This document shows, piece by piece, positions 1,916-14,015 of a stretch of 16,413 nt of DNA. Positions within the stretch are counted from its first letter, which is position 1; each line of letters begins with the position of its first letter. Made by a program: the position numbers and the translations under genes. The DNA is taken from positions 1 to 16,413 of IMG/VR virus record IMGVR_UViG_3300014970_000032. One strand, written 5' to 3'. The notes beneath the pieces are model-generated. The model made no database searches. It saw only the letters and a program-made list of their open reading frames with translations, and had not been told where the DNA came from. The DNA is from a virus (Duplodnaviria > Heunggongvirae > Uroviricota > Caudoviricetes).

Positions 1916-1940
1916 AAAGAAAAAAGGCCGCAGAGCGGCC
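1916..1940. repeat. Left copy of 25-bp direct repeat (aaagaaaaaaggccgcagagcggcc), putative attL core; duplicate of the ihfA terminator hairpin
   Basis: Identical 25-mer at 13984..14008. Flanking sequence differs on the inner side (island) and is core-like on the outer side (btuC upstream). Contains the GGCCGC-agag-CGGCC stem-loop. Confidence 0.7.
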
Positions 1941-2046
1941 ATAAACACAAACAAAAATCAATAAGTTAGATAATTATCAAAGACTTACAGACACACAAAA
2001 ACACAGCCAACCACAACAAATAACAGGGATGTGGTCACTTTGTGGA

Positions 2047-2442
2047 TCATTCGCTCCCCTCTTTTTCCTTATTTCGTTGAACGCCAATTGCGACACACGT
2101 ACTAAGCAAATCTTTACATTTCTCTACATCTTCAGACTTACGCAATTTGATGCTTTTTACAGACTGCGGGCTACTGTCCGTAGCACGATACATCGTTATT
2201 TCAATATCATTTCGGTCTAAGAGTCCCATAATGGCTTTTGCAACCTCCACACCCTTCTTCGCGAAATCAAAGAACAGAGCAAGTTTATATGGATTTTCGA
2301 CGGAAAAAACTTCAATTTTGCTAAAACCAACATCGTGTAGAGAAAAATATTGCTCAACCTCATCTCGAAGTTCTGGATCGCATACAATGTCTATTCTCCA
2401 GTACTGACCTAAATGCAAATCGCTATTAACTGTTTTTTCCAC
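2047..2442 (-). CDS. Hypothetical protein immediately downstream of the integrase (cargo at the attL-proximal end)
   Basis: Track ORF 2047..2463 begins at a TTG. A strong SD (AAGGAGG, revcomp of about 2448-2454) precedes an in-frame GTG at 2440-2442, which I take as the likelier start (about 131 aa). The ORF overlaps the int stop, suggesting co-transcription. No recognisable motif. Confidence 0.45.
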   Translation of the reverse strand: MEKTVNSDLHLGQYWRIDIVCDPELRDEVEQYFSLHDVGFSKIEVFSVENPYKLALFFDFAKKGVEVAKAIMGLLDRNDIEITMYRATDSSPQSVKSIKLRKSEDVEKCKDLLSTCVAIGVQRNKEKEGSE

Positions 2443-2452
2443 AACATCCTCC

Positions 2453-3427
2453 TTACCCAGCAATAGGATTAAATCTCACCGCATCCTGCAAGTAATCCGG
2501 CGCAAGATGGGCATAAATCATCGTTGTCTGAATCTTTGCGTGCCCCAGAATTTTCTGGAGCGTCAGAATATTGCCGCCGTTCATCATGAAATGACTGGCG
2601 AAGGTGTGGCGCAGCGCATGAACAGCCTGGCCGTCAGGAACATCAGGTGCGACCGTTTTGATGACATCGCGAACCAATGGATAATCCAGCGTCGGAAACA
2701 CCAGTTTCCCGCCCCGTTTTTTGATCTTTTCAAACAGGCTTTCAGAAATAGGAACGGTACGGTTTTTGCTGTTCTTCGTTTTTGAAAAAGTGATTCGACA
2801 ATGAAGAACACGGCGCTGCTCCAGTGCCGCTACCTCGCCCCATCGCGCCCCGGTCGACAGAAGGATTTCGACAGCCAGCCGTTCATCGGGATTTTCAGCC
2901 AGTGCATCCAGCAACTGAACACATTCAGACTTACTCAGATATCCCATTTCGCGCTCGTTAACCTTCATTCCTTTAAGGCCTTGAACGGGGTTATCGTTAA
3001 GAAAATGGCCGGATGAGATGAGTGCGGTAAACATCGCGCTTAACGCCCCAATCTCTCGATTAATGGTGCTGGGCTGTATCCCCTGCTCTATCCTGGACAC
3101 ACGTAGCTCGGTGAGCATCGTTGTATTAAGTTTATGCACACACGGGTCATCCATTGCCTCACTCAAGCGCAGCAATTTAAGGCGCGTGTTATGCCCTGAC
3201 TTCATTAGCTGGCCGTGGTATTTCCACCACAAGTCAATAAGCACCGACAGCGGACGGCGATCAATGGAGTTTCCTTTCCACTCATTGTTATGCTGTTGCG
3301 CCAGCACCCACCGCTCATATAAAACTGCATCCGATTTCGTTTTAAATTTTTTGCGAATGCGTTTGCCTTTACGCCCCTCAGGGCGCATGTCAAGAAGATA
3401 CCCTCCCGGAATTGATTTTATGCTCAT
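2453..3427 (-). CDS. int: Tyrosine site-specific integrase, P2 Int-like
   Basis: Track ORF 2453..3577; I place the start at the internal ATG (revcomp 3425-3427) giving MSIKSIPGGYLLDMRPEGRKGKRIRKKFKTKSDAVLYERW..., which parallels the P2 Int N-terminus. C-terminal catalytic region ...LSTGARWGE...HALRHTFASHFMMNGGNILTLQKILGHAKIQTTMIYAHL has the R..HxxR..Y tyrosine recombinase signature. Confidence 0.9.
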   Translation of the reverse strand: MSIKSIPGGYLLDMRPEGRKGKRIRKKFKTKSDAVLYERWVLAQQHNNEWKGNSIDRRPLSVLIDLWWKYHGQLMKSGHNTRLKLLRLSEAMDDPCVHKLNTTMLTELRVSRIEQGIQPSTINREIGALSAMFTALISSGHFLNDNPVQGLKGMKVNEREMGYLSKSECVQLLDALAENPDERLAVEILLSTGARWGEVAALEQRRVLHCRITFSKTKNSKNRTVPISESLFEKIKKRGGKLVFPTLDYPLVRDVIKTVAPDVPDGQAVHALRHTFASHFMMNGGNILTLQKILGHAKIQTTMIYAHLAPDYLQDAVRFNPIAG

Positions 3428-3476
3428 TCGTGAAACCCCAGCGTTACAAGACCACCATGCTCCCAGCGTTCCATGA

Positions 3477-3785
3477 TTAACCGGGCTGTGTACCAGTCTT
3501 GCGGGATTTTTGAGAAGACGATGTGTTTTCTGGCCCATCAGGGGAGAGAGAGGGACTGATCTGCCCAGCAGCCTCATTTGTTTTTCCCGTCATAAGCCAA
3601 TTCATGTACTTAAAAAAGCGAGGGTGATTAACAATCTTGATAAGCACTTCGCCCCCTATGTTTTCAATCCGCCCCGTTTCATAACGACGCAAAGTGCCGA
3701 TAGGCACATCAATCAGGCCGCAAAATTCTTCGCGCGTTAAATCCTCTGATTCACGAATCACTCTAATTTTTTCACCGATAAGCAT
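3477..3785 (-). CDS. Immunity repressor, P2 C-like helix-turn-helix protein
   Basis: 102-aa ORF MLIGEKIRVIRESEDLTREEFCGLIDVPIGTLRRYETGR... with an N-terminal HTH; same strand as int and directly upstream of it, as for C in P2; ATG at revcomp 3783-3785. Confidence 0.8.
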   Translation of the reverse strand: MLIGEKIRVIRESEDLTREEFCGLIDVPIGTLRRYETGRIENIGGEVLIKIVNHPRFFKYMNWLMTGKTNEAAGQISPSLSPDGPENTSSSQKSRKTGTQPG

Positions 3786-3850
3786 TGACAGTGTTCCTAT
3801 AAGTACACTAAGCTTGCGCGCAAGGTGTACTTATAAGTACACCAAGTCAC
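3785..3850. promoter_or_regulatory. Divergent promoter/operator region between the repressor and rightward genes
   Basis: Perfect 18-bp palindrome gtgtacttataagtacac at 3825..3842, and a related half-degenerate copy gtgttcctataagtacac at 3791..3808 (34 bp centre to centre). Consensus -35 TTGACA at 3785..3790 on the + strand, overlapping the repressor start codon. Confidence 0.5.
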
Positions 3851-3881
3851 AAACAACCACAGATAGCGCAGGTTATCACAC

Positions 3882-4163
3882 ATGGCAAAAGTCCTGAACA
3901 CACACGAACAGGCAGACTTTGAGCGTTTAGCAGCGTTCTATCCCTACCGCGATGAGCATGGGTTACCGTGCTTTCTGACATGCTGCGCGCCATCCGTGAC
4001 ACAGAGCACGCACAAAGAATCAATGAAACCACTGAACGCGCACGCCGCAAGGCTACTTTGCTCCAAAAGAGAGGCAAACAGCACTTTAGTAATCAAAATG
4101 ATGATGAGAAAAAACAATTACAAAGTTGGATATGCCTTTTCCATCATGAGGGATGAGATGTGA
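3882..4163 (+). CDS. Hypothetical small ORF in the cox-equivalent position (possibly degenerate)
   Basis: 93-aa ORF located where P2 has cox, but no recognisable Cox similarity. A second overlapping ORF in another frame (3968..4156) suggests frame decay. Confidence 0.25.
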   Translation: MAKVLNTHEQADFERLAAFYPYRDEHGLPCFLTCCAPSVTQSTHKESMKPLNAHAARLLCSKREANSTLVIKMMMRKNNYKVGYAFSIMRDEM

Positions 4164-4178
4164 ATCGCTAACCGAATA

Positions 4179-13003: not shown

Positions 13004-13034
13004 ACGGCGCTCCTTAGAGTGCCGTTCGTTTATT
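13004..13034 (+). terminator. Candidate rho-independent terminator after the 1039-aa gene
   Basis: Stem acggcgct / agtgccgt (8 bp, one G-U) with 6-nt loop, followed by T-rich tcgtttatt. Confidence 0.4.
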
Positions 13035-13130
13035 AACTAATGCTAAAAATCATTATATAGAGAAAGTCATGTTTAAATCTTAGAGAATACAACCTAGAAT
13101 AGTGCAAGCACTACAATAAGAGAGGTCGCT

Positions 13131-13391
13131 ATGTTCCGTTGTCCGCTTTGTGGCGCATCTGCCCGTATCCGCACCAGTCGTCCGGAAAATGATTCAAACA
13201 CCGTGAGACAAAAGTATTATCAGTGTAACAATCTAGAATGCGGCGTATGTTTCTCAACACTGGAAGCCTTCCACAAATTCACTTCAAAGCACGCCTCCCC
13301 CATTCACTCATCAGAGGGCATCCCGTGGCATGAACTGCCAACTTCACACAGAGGAAACAATCAGATGAGTTTGCCCTTACCTCAGAATTAA
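13131..13391 (+). CDS. ogr: Ogr/Delta-family zinc-finger late-gene transcriptional activator
   Basis: 86-aa ORF MFRCPLCGASARIRTSRPEN...YYQCNNLECGVCF with a CxxC...C...C zinc-finger arrangement like P2 Ogr; SD AGAGAGG before the ATG; located at the attR-proximal end as in P2 prophages. Confidence 0.85.
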   Translation: MFRCPLCGASARIRTSRPENDSNTVRQKYYQCNNLECGVCFSTLEAFHKFTSKHASPIHSSEGIPWHELPTSHRGNNQMSLPLPQN

Positions 13392-13581
13392 CGAGCAGAA
13401 TTGCCGGAGTAACAAAAAAGCGATAGATTACGCGCGGGTGCCTTTCGGCTGATGGTCGGAGGGAATACCTGAAGGCCAGATGTGGAAAGGCCCCGGAAAA
13501 CATTTTTGTTTAACCGAGGCCCTAACCGTCTACCCTAAGCAAGTGATAGGTTAGCGCCTCCCCGAAAAAGGAGCAAGCGCT

Positions 13582-13722
13582 ATGTCGCAAAAATCGCTTA
13601 CGGCCATCACGTTCTGCGTGACGGCAATCCTCATCATCTGGATACTGCACGGTTCGCTGTGCGAAATACGGATGAGCTTCTGGGGAGCGGAGTTTGCGGC
13701 GTTCTTACAGTGTAAGCAGTAA
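13582..13722 (+). CDS. hok: Hok/Gef-family small membrane toxin (46 aa; not in supplied ORF track)
   Basis: Translation MSQKSLTAITFCVTAILIIWILHGSLCEIRMSFWGAEFAAFLQCKQ: N-terminal TM helix plus the SLCEIR and E-x-AAF motifs of Hok/Gef toxins. SD AAGGAG 8 nt upstream of the ATG. Confidence 0.75.
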   Translation: MSQKSLTAITFCVTAILIIWILHGSLCEIRMSFWGAEFAAFLQCKQ

Positions 13723-13731
13723 GGAAACCGC

Positions 13732-13753
13732 GACGGGGGAGCAATCCCCCGTC
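13732..13753 (+). other. GC-rich hairpin with GNRA-type loop in the hok 3' UTR
   Basis: gacggggga-gcaa-tcccccgtc, a perfect 9-bp stem, 10 nt after the hok stop; no U-tract, so more likely a structural element of the mRNA than a terminator. Confidence 0.45.
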
Positions 13754-13810
13754 AATCGGTTGCCAGGGTAAGGTCGATAAGGCACCCTATCTCACAGACA
13801 TGAACAACAA

Positions 13811-13843
13811 ACCCGCAGCGTAAAAACTGCGGGGTTTCTTTTT
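13811..13843 (+). terminator. Rho-independent terminator of the hok transcript
   Basis: acccgcag-cgtaaaaa-ctgcgggg stem-loop followed by tttcttttt. Confidence 0.55.
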
Positions 13844-13983
13844 GGTGTCCTCACCGACTTGAAACAGTGATCAGACTATAAGACAAAGCCCACAATGTAG
13901 CGGGCTTACTCCCCTCCCCCCACTAAATGTGGACGCATCGTGGAACGAAGAGATATAAAACATTATAAATCAATTAGTTATTG

Positions 13984-14015
13984 AAAGAAAAAAGGCCGCA
14001 GAGCGGCCTTTTTAG
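13984..14015 (-). terminator. ihfA rho-independent terminator; right copy of the 25-bp direct repeat (putative attR core)
   Basis: On the minus strand, 11 nt after the ihfA stop: aaaaaggccgctctgcggccttttttcttt (GGCCGC-tctg-CGGCC stem plus T-run). The 25-mer at 13984..14008 is identical to 1916..1940. Confidence 0.75.

What the first reader, a model, noticed from the sequence alone, without database searches (positions are those of the whole stretch)
1916..14008. P2-like element integrated into the ihfA terminator hairpin, duplicating it as a 25-bp direct repeat
Seen in sequence: the identical 25-mer aaagaaaaaaggccgcagagcggcc occurs at 1916..1940 and 13984..14008, and contains the stem-loop that ends ihfA. 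Between the copies lie the integrase, repressor, ogr and cargo; outside them lie core btuC and ihfA. Established knowledge: in the E. coli K-12 arrangement as I recall it, ihfA and btuC are adjacent, and P2-family integrases usually use other sites, so this att site looks unusual. The left copy now sits about 60 bp upstream of btuC, so insertion may have separated btuCED from any read-through or promoter activity coming from the ihfA side.
Basis: partly seen in the sequence, partly recalled or inferred. Interest (0 to 1): 0.6.

Follow-up and report, generated by a model that had tools for sequence, protein, structure and literature searches.

The report
Degraded P2-like prophage beside ihfA
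A 12-kb decayed remnant of a P2-family phage sits at an already published phage attachment site, the transcription terminator of ihfA, which about 1 in 18 complete E. coli genomes have occupied, so the finding is real but ordinary.

Summary
The 25-mer occurs exactly twice, at 1916-1940 and 13984-14008. K-12 has one copy between btuC and ihfA. In most genomes listed from 5,426 complete E. coli genomes, the flank matches stop exactly at the repeat edges. The repeat is the hairpin and T-tract of the ihfA terminator, which also ends the ProQ-dependent sRNA STnc540.

The claim that the site is unusual is wrong. Oshima et al. 2008 listed prophage PP_SE11-4 (35.8 kb, P2-like) "between btuC and ihfA" with a 25-nt duplication. 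I found the same 25-mer at exactly their coordinates. The junction is interrupted in 306 of 5,426 genomes, and 299 carry this integrase, 300 copies in all, every one chromosomal.

The element is not a working prophage. Three internal deletions of about 25 kb removed the replication, head, lysis and most tail genes, and cut the cox-position gene after about 30 codons. What remains is integrase, repressor, a methylase-ATPase pair, tail-gene fragments, an uncharacterised 1039-aa protein, ogr and hok.

An effect on btuC is unlikely. The terminator also separates ihfA from btuC in the empty site, and a promoter-like site next to btuC is preserved. Verdict: already known, low interest.

The parts
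877..1857 (-). btuC, the host flank on the attL side. Its start codon lies 58 nt from the repeat.
   Evidence: ORF list; PGAP annotation of the 100%-identical GPEC389 region.
1890..1918 (-). Promoter-like site TTTTCA-17-TAAAAT upstream of btuC. The first hexamer (1913-1918) overlaps the duplicated T-tract, so the site is preserved at attL.
   Evidence: Scan of the K-12 empty site (L002 1503-1475 = window 1918-1890); sequence. This is a consensus match only, and function was not shown.
1916..1940 (+). attL core, the left copy of the 25-bp repeat. On the - strand it keeps the 6-bp GC stem and the U-tract but loses the A5 stem extension.
1941..2054 (+). P' arm of the att site. It holds IHF-consensus sites at 1956-1968 and 1975-1987, and a tandem arm-type pair GATGTGGTCACTTTGTGGATCA at 2031-2052.
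   Evidence: The arm is conserved in E. coli SE11, a Salmonella genome and locus L010, and conservation ends right after the second repeat. The record named Peduovirus P2 has the same tandem (A/G)TGTGGAC pairs at 11-nt spacing in both arms. IHF pattern search.
2047..2463 (-). Cargo ORF of 131-138 aa with unknown function, in the variable slot between att and int. SE11 carries two different ORFs here.
   Evidence: phrog_14142, E = 8.6e-70, no Pfam or PADLOC hit. Similarity to SE11, BUCT2930 and ET791 breaks at 2054 and resumes at 2466.
2453..3427 (-). Tyrosine integrase, 324 aa, apparently intact.
   Evidence: Int_N 1.5e-28 and Phage_integrase 7.9e-20. It is 99% identical to the SE11 Int and 49% to the Int of the record named Peduovirus P2. 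The conserved tyrosine-recombinase residues I identified by motif (R195, H270, R273, H296, Y305) are all invariant columns.
3477..3785 (-). HTH repressor, 102 aa, in the position of P2 gene C. It is full length.
   Evidence: HTH_3/HTH_31 and phrog_147 at 2.5e-31. Same length as in the intact prophages.
3882..4163 (+). Chimeric ORF. The first ~30 codons come from the cox-position gene and are fused out of frame to the last ~195 nt of replication gene A. The deletion 1 junction lies at 3962-3973 and has 12 bp of microhomology.
   Evidence: Window 1-3973 = MS20654 L006 3001-6973, and window 3962-7611 = L006 13098-16747. phrog_11533 matches only positions 1-31 of 92. Protein alignment.
4342..5187 (+). 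D12-class N6-adenine DNA methyltransferase, 281 aa. It is cargo of the slot between gene A and the portal gene.
   Evidence: MethyltransfD12 at 1.3e-20. PADLOC PD-Lambda-5_B at 8.7e-122. It lies between the replication endonuclease and the portal gene in MS20654.
5205..6902 (+). AAA_15/AAA_21 ATPase, 565 aa, partner of the methylase.
   Evidence: weak hits to PtuA, GajA, AriA and ATPase-Toprim profiles; phrog_3940, 2e-135.
7143..7611 (+). Retained non-coding block that precedes the portal gene in intact relatives. It ends with the last 17 nt of the portal gene. The deletion 2 junction lies at 7611/7613.
   Evidence: 96-97% identical to L001, L004, L006 and L007. Portal gene position.
7613..9207 (-). 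Tail-gene block. It holds the tape-measure N-terminus (about 63 aa, 7613-7803), the E/E' region (7790-8319), an intact tail tube gene (8374-8886) and the C-terminal ~107 aa of the sheath (8886-9207).
   Evidence: 97.2% identical to VG38-53E1 L005 12001-13595. phrog_103, phrog_55 and Phage_sheath_1C. 93-97% identical to P88-like phages.
9203..9627 (+). C-terminal ~141 aa of tail gene D. The deletion 3 junction lies at 9203-9207 and has 5 bp of microhomology.
   Evidence: Window 9203-16413 = L005 15301-22511. The Phage_GPD profile matches positions 200-304 only.
9876..12995 (+). 1039-aa cargo protein of unknown function in the variable slot between D and ogr. It has an N-terminal helical, hydrophobic, probably membrane region. 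GC content is about 32%.
   Evidence: No Pfam, PHROG or PADLOC hit. Homologues of about 1040-1070 aa occur across Enterobacterales. AF2 model pLDDT 79.7, with no informative PDB match. GC profile.
13131..13391 (+). ogr, the P2-type late-gene activator zinc-finger protein, 86 aa.
   Evidence: Ogr_Delta at 5.3e-14; PGAP annotation.
13582..13722 (+). Hok/Gef-family toxin gene, 46 aa.
   Evidence: HOK_GEF at 8.3e-07. Annotated as Hok/Gef, or as MokW-like in P88-like phages.
13929..13983 (+). P arm of the att site. It holds the tandem arm-type pair AATGTGGACGCATCGTGGAACG at 13929-13950 and the IHF-consensus site AATCAATTAGTTA at 13968-13980.
   Evidence: In six prophages the TGTGGAC and GTGGAAC cores are invariant. 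Variation within the IHF site falls only in the NNNN positions. Pattern search.
13984..14008 (+). attR core, the right copy of the 25-bp repeat. Together with 14009-14013 it rebuilds the complete native 11-bp-stem terminator of ihfA/STnc540.
13984..14084 (-). 3' end of ihfA plus its terminator, which is the part of the Rfam STnc540 model kept at attR. The Rfam hit itself runs on to 13940. The rest of the model, which is the btuC leader, now lies at attL.
   Evidence: RF02082 scores 41.3 bits here and 67.4 bits for the uninterrupted K-12 locus. STnc540 is a ProQ-dependent sRNA made from the ihfA 3' UTR (PMC6315103).
14026..14325 (-). ihfA, the host flank on the attR side.

Best explanation
The interval 1916-14008 is an immobilised 12,068-bp remnant of a P2-family prophage of the P88-like group (the best tail-gene matches include records named Xuanwuvirus). 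It lies at that lineage's normal chromosomal attachment site.

How it got there. The ancestral phage, about 36-37 kb, carried an attP whose 25-bp core is identical to the intrinsic terminator of ihfA, which is also the terminator of the ihfA 3'-UTR sRNA STnc540. Its tyrosine integrase recombined this core with the identical host sequence. The integrase was probably helped by IHF, bound at consensus sites on both arms, and positioned by tandem TGTGG(A/T)NC arm-type repeats. Because the whole 25 bp is shared, both junctions carry it:
- attR rebuilds the complete native terminator, so ihfA and STnc540 are unchanged.
- attL keeps the GC stem, the U-tract and the native btuC leader.

How it decayed. 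Three internal deletions of about 6.1, 17.8 and 1.7 kb followed. Two of the junctions have 12-bp and 5-bp microhomology. The deletions removed most of the cox-position gene, the early and replication genes, all head, lysis, baseplate and fibre genes, and parts of T, FI and D.

What is left open and full length: integrase, repressor, the methylase-ATPase pair, the tail tube and E-position genes, the 1039-aa protein, ogr and hok.

Shown here: the repeat, the empty site, the breakpoints, the conservation of att-arm motifs, and the one-to-one association of integrase and site.

Inferred: the order of events, IHF and Int binding at the named motifs, loss of excision ability, and any benefit from the retained cargo.
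For: - The repeat is exact and not due to chance.
- K-12 has a single copy, with both flanks continuous.
- In nearly all rows sampled across the ranking of 5,426 complete genomes, the flank match ends at window 1940 or starts at 13984.
- 5,120 genomes have an uninterrupted junction and 306 a split one.
- The integrase DNA is present in 299 genomes, 300 copies, all chromosomal.
- The SE11 prophage has the same 25-mer at record positions 1928706 and 1964508, which are the published boundaries. Its Int is 99% identical.
- Full-length relatives occupy the same site in GPEC389, MS20654, VG38-53E1 and SE11.
- The breakpoints map inside phage genes.
- Arm-type repeats and IHF sites are conserved, and they resemble those of the record named Peduovirus P2.
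- The core is the terminator of ihfA and STnc540.
- The same degraded layout occurs at 99.8-99.9% identity in four independent assemblies, so it is not an assembly artefact.
Against: - No attP form of this module, with the core flanked by both phage arms, was found in the INPHARED phage genomes, IMG/VR or the JGI metagenomes. No deposited phage has an integrase more than 56% identical. Recombination by this integrase at this core is therefore inferred from junctions, not observed.
- No single genome in the collection carries both cargo sets. "Three deletions from one ancestor" could instead include recombination between related prophages.
- The cox-position protein has no detectable similarity to the ORF at the cox position of the P2 record, and no Pfam family. 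Its role as an excisionase rests on gene position only.
Confidence: 0.9

Rival explanations
1. The element is a functional, inducible P2-like prophage, or a helper-dependent satellite of the P4 kind, that can still excise and transfer.
For: - Integrase, repressor and ogr are full length, and both att junctions with their arm motifs are intact.
- The non-coding block that precedes the portal gene in intact relatives is retained at 7143-7611 and could include the packaging site.
- A related superinfecting phage could in principle supply the missing functions.
Against: - The breakpoints lie inside genes: cox', A', portal', T', FI' and D'. This is the signature of deletion, not of a streamlined satellite.
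- No ORF in the Pfam and PHROG scans matched any satellite function such as a primase or a capsid-size protein.
- The cox-position gene is cut after about 30 codons, and the replication gene is gone.
- No P2-type cos sequence was found with up to 3 mismatches.
Confidence: 0.05
2. The insertion changes btuCED expression in a meaningful way by cutting the operon off from ihfA-side transcription or upstream promoter elements.
For: - Sequence upstream of the hairpin at attL is now AT-rich phage DNA rather than the ihfA 3' end.
- The attL hairpin is shorter and weaker, -13.4 against -17.8 kcal/mol. Transcripts of int and the 138-aa ORF might therefore read into btuC.
Against: - The same terminator lies between ihfA and btuC in the empty site.
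- Published Salmonella RNA-seq shows no read-through from ihfA (PMC8942017).
- The promoter-like site TTTTCA-17-TAAAAT and the whole 58-nt leader are retained at attL.
- About 5.6% of complete E. coli genomes have this junction interrupted, including widespread pathogenic lineages.
Confidence: 0.12
3. The remnant persists because selection keeps it as a fixed defence and immunity island: the repressor, the methylase-ATPase pair, the 1039-aa protein and hok. It is not simply neutral decay.
For: - The cargo ORFs and the repressor are intact, while most structural genes are truncated or lost.
- The methylase matches the profile of the validated defence system PD-lambda-5.
- The slot between A and the portal gene is a published P2 defence hotspot.
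- The identical layout recurs in four independent samples.
Against: - Recurrence at 99.8% identity is equally explained by clonal descent.
- Integrase, ogr and two tail genes are also intact, with no obvious use.
- No defence function was tested, and the 1039-aa protein has no recognisable domain.
Confidence: 0.3
4. The 25-bp repeat is a transposition target-site duplication or a chance repeat, not an att core.
For: None beyond the existence of a direct repeat.
Against: - 0 of 200 shuffles produced a match.
- No transposase is present.
- The same 25 bp flank every related prophage examined.
- Conserved arm-type and IHF motifs sit on both sides of the core.
- A tyrosine integrase lies next to attL.
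Confidence: 0.01

Closest known systems
PP_SE11-4, the P2-like prophage of E. coli SE11 (Oshima et al. 2008, DNA Res, PMC2608844, Table 2)
   Same: - Same attachment site between btuC and ihfA.
- Identical 25-nt duplication, found at exactly the published coordinates.
- Int is 99% identical.
- Same P and P' arms, repressor, ogr and hok, and the same tail-gene orientation.
   Different: - SE11 carries the full 35.8-kb prophage, whereas the window has 12.07 kb after three deletions.
- Cargo differs in three slots: att-int, A-portal and D-ogr.
Phage P2 site-specific recombination system (Int, Cox, IHF; 27-bp core)
   Same: - A tyrosine integrase next to attL, 49% identical to the Int of the record named Peduovirus P2.
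- ogr next to attR.
- Tandem (A/T)TGTGG(A/T)NC arm-type repeats at about 11-nt spacing in both arms.
- IHF-consensus sites between the arm repeats and the core.
- The 27-bp size of the P2 core is from my own knowledge, not from a tool result.
   Different: - The core sequence and the host site are different.
- The cox-position protein shows no detectable similarity to the ORF at the cox position of the P2 record, and here it is truncated.
- The tail operon FI-U lies on the opposite strand, as in P88-like phages.
P88-like phages (P88, 500465-2, PhiR44_2, Chuche, and records named Xuanwuvirus)
   Same: - The tail genes and the D fragment are 93-97% identical.
- The hok region is 94-98% identical.
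   Different: - None of these deposited phages carries this integrase or attP module. The best Int match in the phage collection is 56%.
- They are complete genomes.
Elements that integrate into the 3' end of small RNA genes (tRNA, tmRNA, sRNA) and rebuild it
   Same: The core covers the terminator of a characterised sRNA, STnc540, and of its parent ihfA mRNA. The phage-borne copy restores the full 3' end at attR.
   Different: - The target is a 3'-UTR-derived sRNA and an mRNA terminator, not a tRNA or tmRNA.
- The Rfam model also spans the btuC leader, which ends up at attL.

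Membership tests
P2-family (Peduoviridae) prophage integration module | A tyrosine recombinase with the conserved catalytic residues, encoded next to one att junction | tested here: met
   Int_N and Phage_integrase domains. The conserved tyrosine-recombinase residues I identified by motif (R195, H270, R273, H296, Y305) are invariant in the alignment with the Int of the P2 record. The gene lies about 510 bp from attL.
P2-family (Peduoviridae) prophage integration module | Direct repeats at both ends that equal a single copy in unoccupied genomes (attL, attR and attB share the core) | tested here: met
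P2-family (Peduoviridae) prophage integration module | Arm-type Int repeats and an IHF site flanking the core | tested here: met
   Sequence motifs are conserved across 4-6 prophages and resemble the arms of the P2 record. Protein binding was not tested.
P2-family (Peduoviridae) prophage integration module | An intact excision-directionality gene (the cox position) divergent from the repressor | tested here: not met
   Only the first ~30 codons remain, fused to the 3' end of gene A.
Complete P2-like prophage | Replication gene A, the portal-to-terminase head operon, and the lysis, baseplate, fibre and full tail genes | tested here: not met
   These genes are absent or truncated when compared with MS20654, VG38-53E1 and SE11.
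Complete P2-like prophage | An Ogr/Delta zinc-finger late activator at the end opposite to int | tested here: met
   Ogr_Delta at 5.3e-14, positions 13131-13391.
PP_SE11-4-type prophage lineage (btuC/ihfA site) | The same 25-nt core, the same flanking genes and a near-identical integrase | tested here: met
P4-like satellite | A satellite gene set (primase, capsid-size and helper-control genes) in a compact element that does not consist of truncated helper genes | tested here: not met
   No ORF in the Pfam or PHROG scans matched a satellite function. The content is accounted for by fragments of P2-family genes plus cargo.
Transposon or IS target-site duplication | A transposase and terminal inverted repeats with a short duplication | tested here: not met
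   No transposase domain was found. The repeat is 25 bp long and identical in all related prophages.
Rfam RF02082 STnc540 (ihfA 3'-UTR sRNA) | A score above the gathering threshold, with the terminator hairpin in place | tested here: met
   41.3 bits against a gathering score of 38 at attR, and 67.4 bits in K-12. Expression in this strain was not tested.

The most novel reading that the evidence does not exclude
The immobilised remnant is kept as a defence island. Its uncharacterised 1039-aa protein would then be a new single-gene anti-phage system. That protein has a probable N-terminal membrane region and sits in the D-ogr slot, which holds a different gene in each related prophage examined: a KAP NTPase, DUF3800, DUF2971 and others. 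A second, weaker idea is that the attL copy of the STnc540 terminator gives the integrase transcript the 3' hairpin of a ProQ-dependent sRNA.
Probability: 0.15. Interest if true: 0.45.

Novelty: already known. Interest (0 to 1): 0.12.

Why it matters
It matters little as a discovery. The attachment site, its 25-nt duplication and the prophage family were published in 2008, and the site is occupied in about 5.6% of complete E. coli genomes.

The practical value lies in annotation:
- The region should be labelled as a defective P2-family prophage remnant at the btuC/ihfA site, not as an island with an unusual att.
- The att core is also the terminator of the ProQ-dependent sRNA STnc540, which is rebuilt intact at attR.
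- Prophage predictors that overrun this junction pull host btuC into "viral" contigs. That probably explains reports of BtuC as a phage auxiliary metabolic gene.

Tried and rejected
- **Search for the excised or virion form (attP).** A reconstructed attP and an attP-spanning pattern found nothing in the INPHARED phages, IMG/VR or the JGI metagenomes. The integrase protein has no phage match above 56%. The phage form of this module is therefore unobserved in these collections.
- **P2-type cos sequence.** GGCGAGGCGGGGAAAGCAC gave no match with up to 3 mismatches. Whether 7143-7611 holds a packaging site is undetermined.
- **Is the cox-position protein a Cox homologue?** It has no Pfam family and no BLASTP similarity to the ORF at the cox position of the P2 record. 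Its role is inferred from position only.
- **1039-aa protein.** There were no Pfam, PHROG or PADLOC hits. The AF2 model is reasonable (pLDDT 79.7), but Foldseek against the PDB gave only generic helical-repeat matches. The NCBI label "MFS transporter" is unsupported.
- **Is the methylase-ATPase pair a full PD-lambda-5 system?** Only the methylase profile matches strongly. The ATPase's 25 best PADLOC hits are generic ABC/OLD-type ATPases. This is unresolved.
- **Mapping the crossover point.** I tried the Salmonella variant, whose core loop is TAA rather than AGA. Only attL was available, so this was not possible.
- **Inversion of the tail block.** I first thought the tail block was inverted in this window and rejected that. 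FI-U lies on the opposite strand in all full-length relatives.
- **Published att tables.** The supplementary att-site tables of the 2026 NAR study of P2 and P4 are not held as text.
- **btuCED promoter.** A literature search for a mapped btuCED promoter found nothing usable.

Full report
**1. The observation**

The 25-mer AAAGAAAAAAGGCCGCAGAGCGGCC occurs exactly twice in the window, at 1916-1940 and 13984-14008. There are no further copies with up to two mismatches, and none in 200 shuffles. Identity ends sharply at both edges.

Read on the - strand, which is the coding strand of ihfA and btuC, the repeat is GGCCGCUCUGCGGCC followed by UUUUUUCUUU. On that strand the extended stem begins 12 nt after the ihfA stop codon, and the repeat ends 58 nt before the btuC start codon. 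A terminator scan of the K-12 locus calls this hairpin with an 11-bp stem. Folding gives z-scores of -3.4 to -4.8.

**2. The empty site**

In K-12, btuC and ihfA are 100 nt apart and hold one copy of the 25-mer, with both flanks continuous with the window flanks.

- Across 5,426 complete E. coli genomes, in nearly all rows sampled across the ranking the left-flank match ends at window 1940 and the right-flank match starts at 13984.
- A 500-bp probe across the K-12 junction is uninterrupted in 5,120 genomes and split in 306, which is 5.6%.
- The integrase DNA from the window is present in 299 genomes, as 300 copies, all chromosomal. This integrase lineage and this site go together essentially one to one.

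**3. The site is already published**

Oshima et al. 2008 list prophage PP_SE11-4 in Table 2 (PMC2608844). It spans 1,928,706-1,964,507, is 35.8 kb, lies "between btuC and ihfA", is P2-like and has a 25-nt sequence duplication.

In the SE11 record the window's 25-mer sits at 1,928,706 and 1,964,508. The SE11 integrase is 99% identical to the window's.

A 2014 genome note reports a 36.5-kb phage between btuC and himA in S. Typhi STH2370, related to the SE11 phage (PMC3931366). I also found a Salmonella enterica genome with a 98% identical integrase next to btuC. Its core differs only in the hairpin loop.

The lineages that carry the integrase include O104:H4, O111:H-, O127:H6 and O145.

**4. Anatomy of the att site**

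On the int side the phage arm (1941-2054) is conserved between E. coli, Salmonella and a third genome. Conservation stops immediately after a tandem pair, GATGTGGTCAC-TTTGTGGATCA, at 2031-2052.

On the ogr side a matching pair, AATGTGGACGC-ATCGTGGAACG, lies at 13929-13950. Its TGTGGAC and GTGGAAC cores are invariant in six prophages.

The phage record named Peduovirus P2 has the same design, with tandem (A/G)TGTGGAC at 11-nt spacing in both arms.

Perfect matches to the IHF consensus WATCAANNNNTTR lie between the arm repeats and the core at 13968-13980, and at 1956-1968 and 1975-1987. In the six-prophage alignment, variation within the 13968-13980 site falls only in the NNNN positions. These are sequence inferences, and binding was not tested.

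The integrase has the Int_N and Phage_integrase domains and keeps the conserved catalytic residues.

**5. What the core is for the host**

Rfam family STnc540 (RF02082) matches the uninterrupted K-12 locus at 67.4 bits. It matches the window's attR side at 41.3 bits, above the gathering score of 38.

STnc540 is a ProQ-dependent sRNA made from the ihfA 3' UTR in Salmonella (PMC6315103). Its terminator is the att core.

- At attR the full 11-bp stem is rebuilt (-17.2 against -17.8 kcal/mol in K-12).
- At attL only the 6-bp GC stem and the U-tract remain (-13.4 kcal/mol).

This fits the familiar pattern of phages that target the 3' end of an RNA gene and carry a replacement copy.

**6. The element is a remnant**

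Full-length relatives of about 36-37 kb occupy the same site in GPEC389, MS20654, VG38-53E1 and SE11. BLAST against them gives the breakpoints.

| Window segment | Matches | Content |
|---|---|---|
| 1-3973 | MS20654 L006 3001-6973 | Host flank through about 30 codons of the cox-position gene |
| 3962-7611 | MS20654 L006 13098-16747 | Last ~195 nt of gene A, methylase, ATPase, non-coding block, last 17 nt of the portal gene |
| 7613-9207 | VG38-53E1 L005 12001-13595 | Tape-measure N-terminus, E/E', tube, sheath C-terminus |
| 9203-16413 | VG38-53E1 L005 15301-22511 | D C-terminus, 1039-aa gene, ogr, hok, attR, ihfA, pheT |

The three deletions are about 6.1, 17.8 and 1.7 kb. The first and third junctions have 12 bp and 5 bp of microhomology.

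The ORF at 3882-4163, which looks like a cox-sized gene, is a chimera. It matches its PHROG family only over positions 1-31 of 92, and it diverges from the intact protein after residue 29.

The tail fragments are 93-97% identical to P88-like phages. The opposite-strand orientation of the tail operon FI-U is normal for that group.

The same degraded layout, chimera included, is present at 99.8-99.9% identity in four independent assemblies: three gut metagenome assemblies and one sequencing-run assembly. It is therefore a real feature inherited within a lineage. No complete RefSeq genome carries this exact combination.

**7. Consequences for btuC**

The functional concern is weak for four reasons.

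- The terminator already separates ihfA from btuC in empty sites.
- Salmonella RNA-seq shows no read-through from ihfA (PMC8942017).
- A promoter-like TTTTCA-17-TAAAAT site lies between the core and btuC. Its first hexamer overlaps the duplicated T-tract, so it survives at attL.
- The weaker attL hairpin still stands between phage transcription and btuC.

None of this was tested by expression data for this strain.

**8. Cargo**

- The methylase matches the PADLOC profile PD-Lambda-5_B at 8.7e-122. It sits with an AAA_15/AAA_21 ATPase in the slot between A and the portal gene, which is a published P2 defence hotspot.
- The 1039-aa protein lies in a D-ogr slot that holds a different gene in each relative examined. 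It has no family assignment. It has homologues of about 1040-1070 aa across Enterobacterales and gives a confident but uninformative structure model.
- A Hok/Gef gene lies next to attR.

**9. Limits**

The phage form (attP) of this module was not found in the INPHARED phage genomes, IMG/VR or the JGI metagenomes. Recombination at this core is therefore inferred from many concordant junctions rather than seen directly. The excisionase role of the cox-position gene is positional only.

**10. Verdict**

The feature is a known attachment site holding a decayed copy of a known prophage family. Novelty is "already known" and interest is low.

Noticed in passing
window 13940-14084 (-); K-12 locus L002 1443-1601: The Rfam family STnc540 (RF02082), a ProQ-dependent sRNA from the ihfA 3' UTR, covers the ihfA 3' end, the att-core hairpin and the btuC leader. 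The prophage splits the Rfam model: 41.3 bits at attR against 67.4 bits in the uninterrupted locus. The sRNA's own 3' end is rebuilt at attR.
   Followed up: partly
window 3882-4163 (+): This 93-aa ORF looks like an intact cox-sized gene but is a deletion chimera. About 30 codons of the cox-position gene are fused out of frame to the 3' end of replication gene A. Gene callers report it as an ordinary hypothetical protein in several assemblies.
   Followed up: yes
window 9876-12995 (+): This 1039-aa, low-GC (about 32%) protein has a helical, probably membrane N-terminus and no Pfam, PHROG or PADLOC hit. NCBI labels it "MFS transporter", which nothing here supports. Its family of about 1040-1070 aa is spread over chromosomes and plasmids of Enterobacterales. 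The AF2 model (pLDDT 79.7) has no informative PDB match.
   Followed up: partly
window 9628-13130 and the same slot in L003, L004, L005, L007, L009: The interval between tail gene D and ogr is a variable cargo slot in this prophage family. It holds the 1039-aa protein, a KAP P-loop NTPase, DUF3800, DUF2971, a 221-aa hypothetical, or a 384-aa hypothetical on the other strand. The passages I read in the P2 hotspot papers do not name this slot.
   Followed up: partly
window 4342-6902 (+): A methylase that matches PADLOC PD-Lambda-5_B at 8.7e-122 is paired with a 565-aa AAA_15/AAA_21 ATPase. The ATPase's best PADLOC hits are only generic (PtuA, GajA, AriA, ATPase-Toprim). Whether the pair is a true PD-lambda-5 system or a variant with a different partner is unresolved.
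   Followed up: partly
IMG/VR loci L097, L101, L102, L110, L112, L114, L115, L117, L124, L135: Ten of the 47 IMG/VR "viral" contigs that contain this attL junction also include the whole host btuC gene. A 2026 survey of P2-like viruses lists BtuC permease as a phage auxiliary metabolic gene (PMC13100340). That is probably caused by prophage boundaries overrunning this att site.
   Followed up: partly
locus L010 (NZ_JBQPOM010000071.1, titled Vagococcus sp. WN89Y): A contig labelled Vagococcus, a Gram-positive genus, carries this enterobacterial prophage integrase at 98% identity, the exact 25-mer and a btuC about 78% identical to that of E. coli. The assembly is probably contaminated or mislabelled.
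   Followed up: no
window 2047-2463 (-), compared with L007 1857-2656: The space between the P' arm and int is another swap slot. The window and GPEC389 have one 131-138-aa ORF (phrog_14142), whereas SE11, BUCT2930 and ET791 have two unrelated ORFs. The swap boundary at 2466 lies within the last few codons of int, so the Int C-terminus differs (PIAG against PLGGA).
   Followed up: partly
window 13582-13722 (+): A Hok/Gef toxin gene lies about 260 bp from attR and is shared at 94-98% identity with P88-like phages. Similar copies at about 82% identity occur in Stx-converting phages. No Sok-type RNA reached the Rfam gathering threshold.
   Followed up: no
records listed (for example ET881, SW071610, BUCT2930, TD225-C4, E1316, the ETEC series): Many complete genomes carry remnants of different sizes, roughly 5-19 kb, at this same site. 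Some have IS elements or HxsBC radical-SAM genes inside. The btuC/ihfA site looks like a graveyard of independently decayed copies of this prophage family.
   Followed up: no
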